DNA of 64,000 nt from an uncultured Candidatus Saccharibacteria bacterium (GTDB lineage Bacteria; Patescibacteriota; Minisyncoccia; UBA9983): positions 10,766 to 74,765 of the forward strand of contig CAYJQX010000004.1 in NCBI GenBank assembly GCA_964372755.1, read 5' to 3'. Below the pieces are notes generated by a model, which saw only the letters and a list, made by a program, of their open reading frames with translations, did no database searches and had not been told where the DNA came from. Position numbers and translations under genes: made by a program. This document shows, piece by piece, positions 3,917 to 62,076 of the stretch (position 1 is its first letter; the number at the start of each line of letters is the position of its first letter).

Positions 3917-4010
3917 GTTTCGAAAAAGAAGGGTTTCTGAAAATTTAGAAAAATCGTCAACATTATGGCGATTTTTTGATTTTTGGCTATAATAAAAGAG
4001 GCTAAAATAT

Positions 4011-4081
4011 GGGGGTTTAGTTAAGTGGTACCCGCCCGACTGAATGATCTCTAAGGCTTTAGTCGTTCGGGCGGGTAACGG
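4011..4081 (+). other. tRNA-like 5' fragment (pseudo-tRNA-Trp leader) interrupted by a GC-rich hairpin. It is not a foldable tRNA.
   Basis: gggggtttagttaagtggta (4011-4030) resembles the 5' acceptor/D region of the downstream tRNA-Trp (gggggtgtaggcttaacggtaa). An 8-bp stem cccgcccg/cgggcggg (4031-4038 and 4068-4075) follows. Then taacgg resumes the D-loop. No 3' acceptor partner exists. A TATAAT lies at 3988-3993. Confidence 0.4.
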
Positions 4082-4128
4082 CGGTCTCCGAACTTAGAAA
4101 TGAGTGAGTGATAGTTTTTAAAAAAAAT

Positions 4129-8550: not shown

Positions 8551-8565
8551 TTTTGCCGGAGGTGG
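8551..8565. repeat. 15-nt direct repeat of the tRNA-Leu 3' end plus flank (ttttgccggaggtgg). It recurs at 8732-8746, where it overlaps the tRNA 3' end.
   Basis: The identical 15-mer occurs twice about 180 bp apart. In tRNA sense it spans the acceptor 3' strand, the discriminator and aaaa. Such arrangements are typical of att-site duplications at tRNA 3' ends. Confidence 0.45.
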
Positions 8566-8669
8566 TGGAAAATGACTTGGTCACAAGTTCCGCTTTCGTT
8601 GGCCACTCAAGCGGACTCGCGACCCCAGCTCGCCATTTTGTCCTGCTGGACAAAATATGGCTGCGCTTT

Positions 8670-8734
8670 TCAAGTCCCACGCGTTTCGCAAGTAGTTGCG
8701 AAACTCTCCGTCAAAAACTTACTTCGTTCTTTTT
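8670..8734 (-). repeat. Conserved tRNA 3' trailer module (hairpin gtttcgcaag-tag-ttgcgaaac plus an inverted partial T-arm copy ttcaagtcccac). It is shared with the tRNA-Glu locus.
   Basis: In tRNA orientation, about 30 nt after the 3' end comes the hairpin gtttcgcaactacttgcgaaac. Next is gtgggacttgaa, the reverse complement of the tRNA's own T-loop/stem. The trailer aligns with 51283-51348. Confidence 0.5.
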
Positions 8735-8815
8735 TGCCGGAGGTGGGACTTGAACCCACAAGCCTTGCGGCACACGATTTTGAGTCGTGCGTGTATACCA
8801 TTCCACCACTCCGGC
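8735..8815 (-). tRNA. tRNA-Leu (anticodon CAA), a type II tRNA with a long variable arm
   Basis: The reverse-complement fold has acceptor gccggag/ctccggc and a 3-bp D-stem. The anticodon stem is cacga/tcgtg with loop ctCAAaa. The variable hairpin is gccgcaaggc and the T-arm is gtggg-ttcaagt-cccac. Confidence 0.85.
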
Positions 8816-18998: not shown

Positions 18999-19034
18999 TG
19001 GGGGATCGCCTGCCTGCGCAGGCAGGTCCAATGG
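18999..19034 (+). other. Pseudo-tRNA-Gln 5' leader: a copy of tRNA-Gln nt 1-10 plus an 18-nt GC palindrome plus the D-loop continuation
   Basis: tgggggatcg is identical to the first 10 nt of the tRNA-Gln 23 nt downstream. The palindrome cctgcctgc/gcaggcagg follows. Then tccaatgg matches the tRNA's tctaatgg. Confidence 0.4.
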
Positions 19035-44589: not shown

Positions 44590-44745
44590 AGAAATAAATC
44601 ATAAATCCGAATATCGAAATCCGAAACAATGATTAAATTTTTCCTCGACAAAGCCTCGGAATGAATAAAATTTAGAAATAATTAGGATTTACTTGTTTCG
44701 TTCGCCAACTGGCGAATTCGTGCTTCGGATTTAAGTTAATTGTTT
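44590..44745. repeat. About 150-nt TIR-bearing intergenic repeat (copy 1 of 3; nearly identical copy at 53715-53870)
   Basis: aaatccgaaacaatgattaaatttttcctcgacaaagcctcggaatgaataaaatttagaaataattaggatttacttgtttcgttcgccaactggcgaattcgtgcttcggatttaagttaatt. The terminal inverted repeats are aatccgaaaca and tg(c/t)ttcggatt. Confidence 0.7.
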
Positions 44746-44770
44746 TTCAGGGGTTACACAATAAAAAAAG

Positions 44771-47689: not shown

Positions 47690-47800
47690 TTCGACACCAA
47701 TACGCGAATGGACACGAATGACGCTAATGTAATACCAAGTCTTAACTTATTTCTTTATTAGTGACATTCGCGCGTATTATTTGTGTATTAGTGTCGGGTA
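47690..47800. repeat. About 110-nt hairpin/TIR intergenic repeat (family shared with 61968-62076 and 42296-42412)
   Basis: cgacaccaatacgcgaatggacacgaatgacgctaatgtaataccaagtcttaa...cattcgcgcgtattatttgtgtattagtgtcg. The termini cgacac(c/t)aatac and gtattagtgtcg are reverse complements. Confidence 0.7.
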
Positions 47801-51181: not shown

Positions 51182-51282
51182 TTAAGGATTTACTTTCGCG
51201 ACCCGCCTCGCCATTTTTGCCTTGCCTTAATGTTCTTCAAAATCTGCTAATTTTGAAGCGATTTTTACGCTTAAAAATCGGG

Positions 51283-51348
51283 TATTCGATTCCCCGACGT
51301 CTCGCAAGCAGTTGCGAGACTTGTGTTCAAATACTCGCAGACTCGTTT
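51283..51348 (-). repeat. Conserved tRNA 3' trailer module at the tRNA-Glu locus (hairpin gtctcgcaag-cag-ttgcgagac plus an inverted partial T-arm copy)
   Basis: In tRNA orientation, about 30 nt after the 3' end comes the hairpin gtctcgcaactgcttgcgagac. Next is gtcggggaatcgaataccc, an imperfect reverse complement of the tRNA T-arm. It aligns with the tRNA-Leu trailer (8670-8734). Confidence 0.5.
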
Positions 51349-51420
51349 TGACCCCACGGGGAATCGAACCCCGATTACCGCCTTGAGAAGGCGATGTCCT
51401 AACCGTTAGACGATAGGGCC
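51349..51420 (-). tRNA. tRNA-Glu (anticodon CTC)
   Basis: The reverse complement ggccctatcgtctaacggttaggacatcgccttctcaaggcggtaatcggggttcgattccccgtggggtca closely resembles E. coli tRNA-Glu. The anticodon loop is ttCTCaa and the T-arm is cgggg-ttcgatt-ccccg. Confidence 0.8.
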
Positions 51421-51476
51421 AATATTTTGTTTTTAAAATACTTTTTTCCAAAATCGTTCTTGAAATATTTTTCACG

Positions 51477-51525
51477 ACCGTTACCCGCCCGCGCGTACTC
51501 GGAAGCAGGCGGGGACGATAGGGCC
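51477..51525 (-). other. Pseudo-tRNA-Glu 5' leader: a copy of tRNA-Glu nt 1-12 plus a GC-rich hairpin plus the D-loop continuation
   Basis: On the minus strand, ggccctatcgtc is identical to the tRNA 5' end. The hairpin cccgcctgc...gcgggcggg follows. Then taacggt matches the tRNA D-loop. It lies 56 nt upstream of the tRNA. Confidence 0.4.
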
Positions 51526-51852
51526 AATGATTCATTAATCTGCTCAAAATGAGCATAGCAAAATAAACCCCTCCGCTCAATAATTAAGAGCCTCCCATAA
51601 AACAAAATAACTCCGCGTTCCTTATGTTTTAAAAAGGAAAACTAGGGGTTTGACTTATTCTCTGCTATTGCAGATAATCTAGGGTAGAGATGGATTTTAT
51701 AGGTTTACTGGTGGCGGTTGTTAGGAGGAAATACCCCCGTTTCCTTTTGTTCCTTATTTTATCATCAGTTGTATATTGTTTGCTTTTGGCGACGCCAGCT
51801 GATGACCTGCCGATTTAATAAGGAGTCTTTTTGAACTTCCGCCACCTTTTCT

Positions 51853-53714: not shown

Positions 53715-53870
53715 AAAATAAATCAAAATTCGAATATCAAAATCCGAAACAAAGATTAATTTTTTCCTCGACAAAGCCTCGGAGTGAATAAAATTTAGAA
53801 ATAATTAGGATTTATTTGTTTCGTTCGTCAACTGGCGAATTCGTGTTTCGGATTTAGCTTAATTTTATCT
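53715..53870. repeat. About 150-nt TIR-bearing intergenic repeat (copy 2 of 3). It fills the convergent rplU|recR gap.
   Basis: Near-identical to 44590-44745 (aaatccgaaacaaagattaattttttcctcgacaaagcctcggagtgaataaaatttagaaataattaggatttatttgtttcgttcgtcaactggcgaattcgtgtttcggatttagcttaatt). Confidence 0.7.
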
Positions 53871-54527: not shown

Positions 54528-54590
54528 AAAGGATTTATTTGTTTCCTTCGCCAACTGGCGAATTCGTGCTTCAGATTTTGATTTGTTATT
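54528..54590. repeat. Partial copy (3' half) of the 150-nt repeat family
   Basis: ggatttatttgtttccttcgccaactggcgaattcgtgcttcagattttgatttg matches the 3' half of the copies at 44590 and 53715. Confidence 0.5.
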
Positions 54591-54599
54591 TTTTTACTT

Positions 54600-61967: not shown

Positions 61968-62076
61968 ACCCGACGCCAATACACAAATGAATACGAATGA
62001 TACTAATGTAATACCAAATCTTAATTTTCCCAGATTCGTGTCATTCGTGCGTGTTATTTGCGTATTAGTGTCGTTA
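61968..62076. repeat. About 110-nt hairpin/TIR intergenic repeat (same family as 47690-47800)
   Basis: ccgacgccaatacacaaatgaatacgaatgatactaatgtaataccaaatcttaa...cattcgtgcgtgttatttgcgtattagtgtcg aligns along its length with the 47690 copy. Confidence 0.7.

What the first reader, a model, noticed from the sequence alone, without database searches (positions are those of the whole stretch)
8670..8734. Conserved 3' trailer shared by tRNA-Leu and tRNA-Glu: near-identical hairpin plus an inverted copy of the tRNA's own T-arm
Downstream of both minus-strand tRNAs (tRNA-Leu at 8670-8734, tRNA-Glu at 51283-51348) the first ~50 nt align with each other.
- Leu: aaaaagaacgaagtaagtttttgacggagagtttcgcaactacttgcgaaac
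- Glu: aaaacgagtctgcgagtatttgaacacaagtctcgcaactgcttgcgagac

Each ends in the hairpin (g/t)tctcgcaa-cu(a/g)c-ttgcga(g/a)ac. Each is followed directly by a reverse-complement copy of that tRNA's T-loop/stem (gtgggacttgaa for Leu; gtcggggaatcgaataccc for Glu).

The inverted T-arm copy could pair with the tRNA's T-arm in the precursor, clamping the 3' end. The shared hairpin is not followed by a U-run, so it looks more like a processing or recognition site than an intrinsic terminator. A trailer conserved between two different tRNA species is unusual.
Basis: seen in the sequence. Interest (0 to 1): 0.6.

Follow-up and report, generated by a model that had tools for sequence, protein, structure and literature searches.

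The report
Insertion module mimicking tRNA 3' ends
The shared "trailer" after two tRNA genes is the front part of a 155-185-base structured module, found so far only in a few Parcubacteria, that carries both an antisense copy and a spare copy of the neighbouring tRNA's 3' end; it comes and goes between near-identical strains, and its closest known relative in design is the poorly understood RtT repeat behind E. coli tRNA-Tyr.

Summary
Both minus-strand tRNAs (Leu-CAA, Glu-CTC) are followed by the same hairpin, and then by an exact 12-nt reverse complement of that tRNA's own positions 54-65.

Each trailer is a discrete module of about 155-185 nt with this order:
- a spacer;
- antisense to the acceptor 3' strand;
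- the conserved hairpin;
- antisense to the T-loop and T-stem;
- covarying hairpins and a conserved GCGAG..GGTCGCGAG core;
- in the Leu copy, a direct copy of the tRNA 3' end.

Homologues lie after tRNA-Pro, tRNA-Gln and tRNA-Ser in other Parcubacteria, each with antisense arms matching its own tRNA. At tRNA-Ser they form tandem arrays bounded by exact 17-nt repeats. Near-identical strains have filled or empty sites, with the boundary at tRNA position 73/74. In one relative an 89-nt version sits inside the T-arm of the gene.

There is no Rfam match, and no recombinase is encoded in the window. The E. coli RtT repeat has the same layout but no detectable sequence similarity.

Best reading: an RtT-like, insertion-polymorphic trailer module whose antisense arm neutralises one of two copies of the tRNA 3' end in the co-transcript. 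How it moves and how it acquires matching sequences is unresolved.

The parts
8735..8815 (-). tRNA-Leu(CAA), no encoded CCA. Positions 54-73 (8735-8754) are the segment that is both copied and complemented downstream.
8551..8734 (-). Whole Leu module (184 nt), from the first base after the tRNA to the end of the distal copy of the tRNA 3' end.
   Evidence: (fold z = -6.3)
8718..8734 (-). Spacer AAAAAGAACGAAGTAAG. It resembles the spacers of L047 unit 1 and L046 (GAACGRAGTRA).
8706..8717 (-). Antisense segment A, TTTTTGACGGAG. It is the reverse complement of the acceptor 3' strand, the discriminator and the AAAA flank (11 of 12).
8683..8704 (-). Conserved hairpin hp1, GTTTCGCAA-CTAC-TTGCGAAAC.
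   Evidence: 98.6% of cells paired; one pair covaries as UA/CG/AU
8669..8680 (-). Antisense segment B, GTGGGACTTGAA. It is the exact reverse complement of tRNA positions 54-65.
8632..8661 (-). Hairpin hp2 with an AGCA loop. The stem covaries with L046 and L047.
8616..8634 (-). Conserved core GGCGAGCTGGGGTCGCGAG, shared with the Glu and L046 modules.
8575..8615 (-). Hairpins hp3 and hp4. hp3 is TCCGCTT..AAGCGGA; its loop GAGyG..CGA is conserved and its stem covaries with L046. hp4 is ACTTG-TGAC-CAAGT.
8551..8570 (-). Distal copy TTCCACCACCTCCGGCAAAA. The 14-nt CACCTCCGGCAAAA is an exact direct repeat of the tRNA 3' end plus flank. It pairs with segments A and B to close the module, and it is also complementary to the first 15 nt of the tRNA.
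51348..51421 (-). tRNA-Glu(CTC), no encoded CCA. Positions 54-73 lie at 51349-51368.
51193..51348 (-). Whole Glu module (about 156 nt). It has no recognisable distal copy, and its 3' side abuts the stop codon of the convergent 664-aa gene (51181).
51322..51331 (-). Antisense segment A, degenerate (TTTGAACACA; 8 of 11 complementary to TGGGGTCAAAA).
51299..51320 (-). Conserved hairpin hp1, GTCTCGCAA-CTGC-TTGCGAGAC.
   Evidence: On the opposite strand it scores as terminator-like for the convergent gene.
51285..51296 (-). Antisense segment B, CGGGGAATCGAA. It is the exact reverse complement of tRNA positions 54-65.
51236..51257 (-). hp2-like hairpin TTCAAAAT-TAGCAG-ATTTTGAA; the loop contains AGCA.
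51196..51216 (-). Conserved core AAATGGCGAGGCGGGTCGCGA.

Best explanation
The two trailers are copies of a small non-coding repeat module that lives at the 3' end of tRNA genes in some Parcubacteria. In design it is the counterpart of the E. coli RtT repeat behind tRNA-Tyr.

DNA level (shown). The module is an insertion. It begins right after tRNA position 73 and usually ends in a direct copy of the tRNA's last 12-21 nt, starting in the T-loop. It can be present or absent in near-identical strains, can stack in tandem, and can lie inside the T-arm.

RNA level (inferred). It is transcribed with the tRNA on the same strand. It holds one antisense arm, which is segment A, the conserved hairpin and segment B, forming a three-way junction. 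The transcript holds two identical copies of the tRNA 3' segment. The arm sequesters one copy, so exactly one copy stays free to complete the acceptor and T stems. This is why the insertion is tolerated next to, and even within, an essential tRNA gene. The helix formed by the arm and the copy ends in a discriminator base, like an acceptor/T-stem minihelix. The tRNA 3'-end machinery (RNase Z for these CCA-less genes) could therefore cut at both borders and release the tRNA and a module RNA of about 150-190 nt, as happens for RtT.

Spread (inferred, mechanism open). Spread is by recombination through the duplicated tRNA segment, with an enzyme supplied in trans.
For: Architecture and cognate matching:
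- Six full modules after five different tRNAs carry antisense arms matching their own tRNA: Leu and Glu in the window, Pro in L021, Gln in L046, and two at Ser in L047. L040 is a seventh that lies next to no tRNA.
- Single-sequence folds of Leu, both L047 units and L040 give the same closed structure, and L021 and L046 give it in part: P1 (A with A'), hp1, P2 (B with B') and internal hairpins.
- The Leu fold has z = -6.3.

Evidence that the tRNA-sense strand carries the structure:
- G.U pairs are valid only on that strand. L047 unit 1 pairs GGGGGCGG with CCGCCTCC. L046 closes P1 through three G.U pairs. Leu pairs GTGGGA with TTCCAC.
- There is covariation in hp1 and, by inspection, in the hp2 and hp3 stems under conserved loops.
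- No promoter or terminator lies between the tRNA and the module.

Evidence for insertion:
- L047/L059 and L073 carry the array.
- L060, L061, L063, L064 and L075 have identical upstream DNA and an identical tRNA-Ser, followed directly by CCA and unrelated DNA.
- Exact 17-nt repeats GAATCCTCCCGCCTCCG bound each unit.
- L055 has an 89-nt version inside the T-arm with a 9-nt repeat. Its exons are identical to the intact gene in L051, and the flanking ComF proteins are 87% identical.

RtT parallel:
- Each 178-nt E. coli unit ends in a copy of the tRNA-Tyr 3' end starting in the T-loop.
- The outer helix of Rfam RF00391 pairs an internal antisense GGGGAAGGAU with that copy.
Against: - There are no expression or processing data for any of these genomes.
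- The Glu module has no distal copy yet keeps a perfect 12-nt segment B. There the only partner is the tRNA itself, which fits a clamp better than a mask.
- Equilibrium folding puts the arm on the proximal (tRNA) copy rather than on the spare one. Which copy is masked in vivo is therefore open.
- The minihelix has no T-loop, so recognition by RNase Z or RNase P is uncertain.
- L040 has a module that is not next to a tRNA.
- Nothing explains how a new copy acquires arms and a spare copy that match a different tRNA.
- No recombinase, transposase or reverse transcriptase is encoded in the 64-kb window.
- RF00391 does not hit the modules, and my model R1 does not hit RtT. The RtT parallel may be convergence.
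Confidence: 0.4

Rival explanations
1. Guide-directed mobile DNA. The hairpin with its flanking antisense segments is the recognition device of a miniature non-autonomous element. The element would be an IS200/IS605-like single-strand transposon, or a folded single-strand att site as in integron attC or CTX phage. The arm pairs with the tRNA 3' segment in single-stranded DNA to choose the insertion point, and with the identical sequence at the element's own right end. This would explain the apparent direct repeats, the tandem re-insertion and the strand-specific structure. The complementarity would then serve targeting, not RNA folding.
For: - Filled and empty sites occur in near-identical strains.
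- Tandem units each regenerate the target sequence.
- There is an in-gene insertion with a 9-nt repeat, and the hairpin sits at the apex of a perfect 22-bp palindrome.
- Modules lie at five different tRNAs in four genomes and at one non-tRNA site.
- Repeat lengths vary (9, 12, 14, 17 and 21 nt), which is unlike a fixed target-site duplication.
- G.T pairs are also tolerated in single-stranded DNA hairpins.
Against: - No HUH or Y1 transposase, integrase or other recombinase was found in the window or next to any copy.
- There is only one conserved hairpin per unit, not one at each end.
- Known IS200/IS605 guides are 4 nt, not 12-24 nt (own knowledge).
- The conserved internal hairpins and loops are unexplained by targeting alone.
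- No copies were found in phage, plasmid or viral collections.
Confidence: 0.2
2. One reading: a cis-acting clamp. The antisense arm pairs with the T-arm and acceptor 3' strand of the tRNA just transcribed. This delays or gates folding and 3' processing, and the spare copy acts as a competitor that releases the tRNA. The module would be a regulator of tRNA maturation.
For: - Segment B is a perfect 12 of 12 match to the tRNA in Leu, Glu and L047 unit 2, better than to the distal copy (6-8 bp).
- Predicted binding gain is -27 kcal/mol for Leu and -15 kcal/mol for Glu.
- Whole-precursor minimum-free-energy folds put the arm on the tRNA's own 3' part, with P = 0.998 for L047.
- The Glu module has no competitor copy.
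Against: - Near-identical strains do without the module at the same tRNA, and 3 of 5 tRNAs in the window lack it. It is therefore not a required part of tRNA maturation.
- Folding during transcription should form the tRNA first.
- The idea does not explain tandem arrays, the non-tRNA copy or the in-gene copy.
Confidence: 0.15
3. Passive scars. The repeats are leftover attachment-site junctions (attL-type arms) of larger integrative elements or islands that use tRNA 3' ends. They would have accreted and been trimmed, and the structure would have no function of its own.
For: - The direct repeat runs from the T-loop to the tRNA end, as at integrase sites in tRNA genes (own knowledge: Williams 2002, T-loop sublocation).
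- Gene content downstream of tRNA-Ser differs between strains, which marks a hot spot.
- Encoded CCA is lost in the filled allele.
Against: - In the window both modules sit between housekeeping genes with no island or integrase.
- Structure is conserved, with covariation and G.U pairs, across genomes whose proteins are about 50% identical.
- Arms matching the neighbouring tRNA are not a feature of att arms.
Confidence: 0.1
4. A trans-acting small RNA gene that merely hitch-hikes on tRNA promoters and processing. This is what is suspected for RtT/RttR. The conserved hairpin and core would bind a protein or target elsewhere.
For: - The conserved hairpin sequence, the hp2 AGCA loop and the GCGAG..GGTCGCGAG core are shared between modules with unrelated arms.
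- RttR provides a precedent.
Against: - It is dispensable in sister strains.
- It was found in very few genomes: 2 of 185,579 species representatives by the exact hairpin.
- The Glu copy is truncated.
- No target can be proposed.
Confidence: 0.1

Closest known systems
RtT RNA / the 178-bp repeats of the E. coli tyrT-tyrV locus (Rfam RF00391; rttR)
   Same: - It lies in the 3' trailer of a tRNA gene on the same strand.
- Units are about 130-180 nt and occur in tandem.
- Each unit ends in a direct copy of the tRNA 3' end that starts in the T-loop.
- An internal antisense segment (GGGGAAGGAU) pairs with that copy to close the unit around internal hairpins.
- Function is unknown.
   Different: - There is no detectable sequence or covariance-model similarity in either direction.
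- The RtT antisense is one 9-10-nt stretch. It has no conserved hairpin splitting it and no antisense to the rest of the acceptor strand.
- The RtT copy includes CCA.
- In the one E. coli K-12 locus examined here RtT lies behind tRNA-Tyr. Here the modules lie at Leu, Glu, Pro, Gln and Ser with matching arms, are present or absent between strains, and once sit inside the gene.
Integrative elements that use tRNA genes (tyrosine-integrase att sites at the T-loop sublocation; accretion of integrase-less elements such as CIMEs)
   Same: - A direct repeat of the tRNA segment from the T-loop to the 3' end brackets the inserted DNA.
- Tandem accretion occurs.
- Strains show filled and empty sites.
- The tRNA is restored by element-borne sequence.
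   Different: - The unit is only 89-190 nt.
- There is no integrase nearby.
- It carries an antisense copy of the core and a conserved strand-specific structure.
- One copy does not restore the gene (L055).
IS200/IS605 single-strand transposons and their miniature derivatives (PATEs)
   Same: - A subterminal hairpin has adjacent bases that pair with the cleavage or target sequence lying 5' of the element.
- The structure is strand-specific.
- There are no inverted terminal repeats.
   Different: - The pairing is 12-24 nt and bipartite, not 4 nt.
- There is one hairpin, not two.
- No TnpA was found.
- The right end repeats the target.
tRNA-like processing signals (plant mitochondrial t-elements; mascRNA at the MALAT1 3' end)
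   Same: An acceptor/T-stem-like helix placed in a longer transcript could recruit RNase P or RNase Z to define RNA ends.
   Different: - Those have a real T-loop and are not copies of a neighbouring tRNA.
- Here the T-loop is replaced by about 100 nt of hairpins.
- Processing is untested.

Membership tests
RtT RNA (Rfam RF00391) | Lies in the 3' trailer of a tRNA gene, on the same strand | tested here: met
   for E. coli
RtT RNA (Rfam RF00391) | The unit ends in a direct copy of the tRNA 3' end starting in the T-loop | tested here: met
   Copy lengths: Leu 14 nt, L047 17 nt three times, L021 21 nt (split by a hairpin), and L046 diverged. Absent in Glu.. E. coli.
RtT RNA (Rfam RF00391) | An outer helix between an internal antisense segment and that copy | tested here: met
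   Folds; the RF00391 consensus structure
RtT RNA (Rfam RF00391) | Match to the family covariance model | tested here: not met
   No RF00391 hit at the gathering score or at E up to 10 or up to 1. Model R1 finds nothing in the E. coli locus.
RtT RNA (Rfam RF00391) | A discrete RNA is processed from the tRNA transcript | not testable with these tools
   No transcript data
IS200/IS605-type element / PATE | Similar subterminal hairpins at both ends | tested here: not met
   Only one hp1 per unit
IS200/IS605-type element / PATE | Bases next to the hairpin foot pair with the flanking target and with the right-end cleavage site | tested here: inconclusive
   Pairing exists but is 12-24 nt and bipartite. 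Cleavage is not testable.
IS200/IS605-type element / PATE | A Y1 HUH transposase is present in the genome | tested here: inconclusive
   None in the 64-kb window or the loci. The rest of the genomes was not available.
tRNA-gene integrative element (tyrosine integrase) | A direct repeat of the tRNA 3' segment brackets the insert, with filled and empty alleles | tested here: met
tRNA-gene integrative element (tyrosine integrase) | An integrase gene within or next to the insert | tested here: not met
   The right end of the L047 insert lies beyond the contig.
Intrinsic terminator | A GC-rich hairpin followed by a U-run on the transcribed strand | tested here: not met
   Only the opposite strand of the Glu hairpin scores.
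REP-type generic intergenic palindrome | Many copies away from tRNA genes | tested here: not met
   Two copies in 64 kb, both after tRNAs
Known tRNA introns (group I; bulge-helix-bulge), considered for the L055 in-gene copy | Group I core of at least 200 nt, or a bulge-helix-bulge motif at the junctions | tested here: not met
   The insert is 89 nt and consists of three plain hairpins. No helix links the two junctions. There is no Rfam intron hit on homologous modules.

The most novel reading that the evidence does not exclude
The module is a programmable mobile element. Its hairpin-flanked antisense arm selects the T-loop and 3' end of tRNA genes as its target. It can live inside a tRNA gene as a new kind of bacterial tRNA intervening sequence. 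In L055, 89 nt sit in the T-arm of what is probably the only tRNA-Ser(GCU) gene. That implies an unknown way of removing or tolerating a T-arm insertion, for example cleavage of the 22-bp hairpin to give a two-piece tRNA, or use of the distal copy.
Probability: 0.2. Interest if true: 0.85.

Novelty: new variant of a known kind. Interest (0 to 1): 0.65.

Why it matters
- It would give the 45-year-old, still unexplained RtT repeat of E. coli a counterpart in a very distant phylum. It would also supply a testable rule: one antisense arm plus two copies of the tRNA 3' end.
- It shows that tRNA 3' ends in ultra-small Parcubacteria genomes are hot spots for tiny non-coding insertions that match their tRNA. 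These insertions break metagenome assemblies and can make tRNA genes look split.
- If the arm is a targeting guide, or if the in-gene copy is processed, this would be a new mobile-element mechanism or a new kind of bacterial tRNA intervening sequence.

Tried and rejected
- **Known RNA family.** Rfam gave only tRNAs at the gathering score and at E up to 10.
- **Terminator.** There is no U-run on the tRNA strand.
- **REP-like repeat.** Only two copies exist in the window.
- **Hammerhead or other three-way-junction ribozyme.** The junction strands are 1, 2 and 0 nt and no core motifs are present (by inspection, with the Rfam results).
- **H/ACA-like guide.** No unpaired target nucleotides are left at the junction.
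- **Degenerate tandem tRNA duplicate.** Segment B is the reverse complement of the T-loop, not a copy of it. The Leu loop TTCAAGT appears as ACTTGAA.
- **Bridge RNA of IS110.** Both arms pair with the same strand of the target, and there is no recombinase.
- **Database scans.**
  - The genome scan with the exact hairpin gave 45 hits, of which 43 are chance hits in coding DNA.
  - Both viral hits to the hairpin were chance.
  - All 92 viral hits to a second motif were chance.
  - Phage and plasmid BLAST found nothing.
- **Partner enzyme.** Pfam scans of 54 window proteins gave only housekeeping or unassigned proteins. A GIY-YIG protein seen at a related locus is absent from the window.
- **Orthologous loci for the window itself.** The flanking NTP-transferase has no relative above 53% identity, and its contig could not be retrieved.
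- **Right-hand junction of the L047 insert.** It could not be reached.

Full report
**1. The observation**

The window holds five tRNA genes. tRNA-Leu(CAA) is at 8735-8815 and tRNA-Glu(CTC) at 51348-51421, both on the minus strand and both without an encoded CCA. The finding's coordinates are the trailers, and the quoted sequences are correct.

Both trailers contain the hairpin gTYTCGCAA-CTRC-TTGCGARAc, at 8683-8704 and 51299-51320. It occurs nowhere else in the 64 kb. A covariance model built later finds no third copy.

Two bases after each hairpin lies an exact 12-nt reverse complement of positions 54-65 of the adjacent tRNA, that is the T-loop and the 3' strand of the T-stem. For the other three tRNAs the longest such match is 6-7 nt. 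In 5000 random pairings from the window, a match of 12 nt or more occurred 8 times. Two hits at the same tRNA positions and the same place relative to a shared hairpin cannot be chance.

**2.

- A second antisense segment lies just 5' of the hairpin. In Leu, TTTTTGACGGAG complements the acceptor 3' strand, the discriminator and the first flanking A's (11 of 12). In Glu it is degenerate (8 of 11).
- The tRNA's last 20-24 nt could therefore pair continuously with the trailer, with the hairpin standing out at the 65/66 junction as a three-way junction.
- Similarity between the two trailers resumes downstream in AAATGGCGAG..GGTCGCGA.
- The Leu trailer ends, 184 nt after the tRNA, in CACCTCCGGCAAAA, an exact 14-nt direct copy of the tRNA 3' end and flank.
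- Folded alone, the Leu unit closes on itself. Segments A and B pair with this distal copy around four hairpins (dG -79.6 kcal/mol, z = -6.3).
- No Rfam family matches, even at E = 10.
- Both units lie between ordinary housekeeping genes.

**3. Relatives elsewhere**

The exact hairpin was used to scan the public collections.

| Collection | Hits | True modules |
|---|---|---|
| 185,579 species genomes | 45, about the chance number | 2: L021 and L040 |
| Metagenomes | 2 | 2: L046 and L047 |
| Viral contigs | 2 | 0 |

- L021 is a Parcubacteria bacterium with the module after tRNA-Pro.
- L040 is a Paceibacteria contig with a module that is not next to any tRNA.
- L046 has the module after tRNA-Gln.
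- L047 has it after tRNA-Ser(GCU).

In each tRNA-linked case the arms match that tRNA and not the others (matrix). The L021 (Pro) diagonal is not distinct.

The modules of Leu, both L047 units and L040 fold to the same plan, and L021 and L046 do so in part. The plan is P1 (A with A'), the conserved hairpin, P2 (B with B'), a hairpin with an AGCA loop, a GCGAG..CGAG stretch, more hairpins, and then the copy of the tRNA 3' end.

Evidence that the structure matters on the tRNA-sense strand:
- The hairpin is 98.6% paired, with one pair covarying as UA/CG/AU. Its near-invariance is partly an effect of how the copies were found.
- The stems of hp2 and hp3 differ between Leu, L046 and L047 while their loops are conserved.
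- Several closing pairs are G.U, which works only on this strand.

**4. It is an insertion**

After tRNA-Ser in L047 there are two full units and a third, divergent one. The two full units end in the exact 17-mer GAATCCTCCCGCCTCCG (T-loop position 57 to the discriminator). The third unit ends in a degenerate version.

A flanking ComF protein gave a set of loci from near-identical strains.
- L073 has the same array.
- L060, L061, L063, L064 and L075 have the same 250 nt upstream and the same tRNA-Ser, followed directly by CCA and unrelated DNA.
- The left boundary of the insert is thus exactly 73/74.
- Gene content beyond the tRNA differs between strains, which marks a hot spot.

The in-gene copy is in L055, a more distant relative. 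ComF there is 87% identical to that of L051. An 89-nt version of the module lies inside the gene..GGAGGTTCGAATCCT | TATG-hairpin-CATA-AGGATTCGAA-two hairpins-..TCGAATCCT | CCCGCCTCCG, with a 9-nt repeat. Removing the insert gives exactly the intact tRNA-Ser of L051. In L055 the conserved hairpin forms the tip of a perfect 22-bp hairpin that sequesters the truncated proximal copy. The distal copy completes the T and acceptor stems.

**5. Who moves it**

No integrase, transposase, HUH protein or reverse transcriptase is encoded anywhere in the 64-kb window or beside the other copies. No copy was found in phage, plasmid or viral collections. The enzyme, and the way a new copy comes to match a different tRNA, remain unknown.

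**6. How it may work**

Equilibrium folding of whole precursors predicts that the antisense arm takes the proximal copy, which is the tRNA's own 3' part. The tRNA's 5' strand then pairs with the distal copy. For Leu the minimum free energy is -134.8 kcal/mol, against about -114 for the native topology. For L047 the probability is 0.998.

In a cell, folding during transcription would favour the opposite arrangement, with the tRNA folded and the arm on the spare copy. Either way, one arm and two identical copies leave exactly one copy free. I take this masking to be the reason the arm is kept complementary, and the reason the insertion is tolerated even within the gene.

The helix of arm and copy ends in a discriminator base, like an acceptor/T minihelix. 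The 3'-end machinery could therefore cut at both unit borders. These steps are inference; nothing here measures RNA.

**7. Comparison with what is known**

The closest known thing is the E. coli tyrT/tyrV trailer. Each 178-nt unit ends in AATCCTTCCCCCACCACCA, a copy of the tRNA-Tyr 3' end from the T-loop on. It contains GGGGAAGGAT, antisense to positions about 59-68. The outer helix of the Rfam RtT consensus is exactly that pairing. rttR is reported to be encoded by one of these repeated units (PMC3318445, citing Bosl and Kersten 1991), and its role is still unclear.

The layout is the same. Sequence similarity is not detectable in either direction, so I do not file the modules as members of RF00391.

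They also share features with two other kinds of element:
- tRNA-gene integrative elements: the repeat from the T-loop to the 3' end, accretion, and filled and empty alleles;
- IS200/IS605 ends: a hairpin whose flanks pair with the target.

In each case at least one defining feature was tested and not met: no integrase, and only one hairpin per unit.

**8. Verdict**

The clamp idea is partly right: the pairing is real, cognate-specific and thermodynamically favoured. But the module is an insertion-polymorphic repeat, not a dedicated processing signal. The most novel reading still open is a guide-bearing mobile element that can act as a bacterial tRNA intervening sequence.

Noticed in passing
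L055 1082-1262 (Logan SRR22388038): The tRNA-Ser(GCU) gene is interrupted in the T-arm by an 89-nt short version of the module, with the 9-nt repeat TCGAATCCT. Its exons are identical to the intact gene in L051. The precursor folds as a tRNA with three hairpins in place of the T-loop. It may be a new kind of bacterial tRNA intervening sequence, or a dead allele.
   Followed up: partly
window 51477-51528 (-), 18999-19034 (+), 4010-4084 (+): Upstream of tRNA-Glu, tRNA-Gln and tRNA-Trp there are partial copies of the tRNA's own 5' end, in Glu including 3 leader bases. Each copy is split by a GC-rich hairpin of the CCCGCC..GGCGGG type (CCTGCC..GGCAGG upstream of tRNA-Gln). For Glu the copy is ATTGGCCCTATCGTC[30-nt hairpin]TAACGGT. 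This mirrors, on the 5' side, the 3' modules.
   Followed up: partly
L052 12937-13050 (-), L055 895-1000, L057 5637-5708, L047 832-930 (-): A conserved leader module lies upstream of tRNA-Ser(GCU) across distant Parcubacteria. It starts with a copy of the tRNA 5' end (GGAGGCGTGG), has hairpins around GGGCGAAGCCC-NGG-GTCGCGCGAGGRGCGCGAC, and ends in the complement CCACGCTTC. The third downstream unit in L047 (about 170-340) has the same core, and the Leu module core looks related.
   Followed up: partly
L051 6236-6570: A 79-aa GIY-YIG open reading frame lies just upstream of tRNA-Ser. It is bracketed by a 20-nt inverted repeat made of the tRNA leader plus the first bases of the tRNA, with GGAGGC repeated on the outside. 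It is absent from sister loci. It follows the same pattern (target, then its reverse complement, then cargo, then target) with a protein-coding cargo.
   Followed up: no
L021 6640-6700 (-): The distal copy of the tRNA-Pro 3' end is itself split at the 65/66 junction by a CCCGCC..GGCGGG hairpin. This is the same kind of hairpin that splits the 5' pseudo-copies in the window.
   Followed up: no
L050 3085-3160 and L055 1010-1081, compared with L047: A 75-nt insertion lies upstream of tRNA-Ser. It consists of an 18-nt copy of the tRNA 5' end, an AT-rich hairpin and 27 further nt. It is present in these relatives but absent from L047. Many contigs of this lineage end inside or next to tRNA-Ser, as expected from repeat-induced assembly breaks.
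   Followed up: partly
window 44603-44747, 53726-53870, 54530-54593: An unrelated intergenic repeat of about 140 nt occurs in three copies, two of them flanking recR. It contains the hairpin TTCGCCAACTGGCGAA and inverted AAATCCGAAAC motifs.
   Followed up: no
window 47692-47796 and 61971-62073: A further two-copy intergenic repeat of about 100 nt, 84-88% identical, lies upstream of the Mur ligase gene and the L9 gene.
   Followed up: no
window 51299-51320 (+ strand): Read on the opposite strand, the Glu hairpin is followed by a T-rich tail and scores as a terminator for the convergent 664-aa gene.
   Followed up: no
L067 (E. coli K-12 1286200-1287800) and L047 665-680: The E. coli RtT unit and L047 unit 1 share the 9-mer GGATGAGAA at the same place, at the end of the antisense segment, although no overall similarity is detectable.
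   Followed up: no
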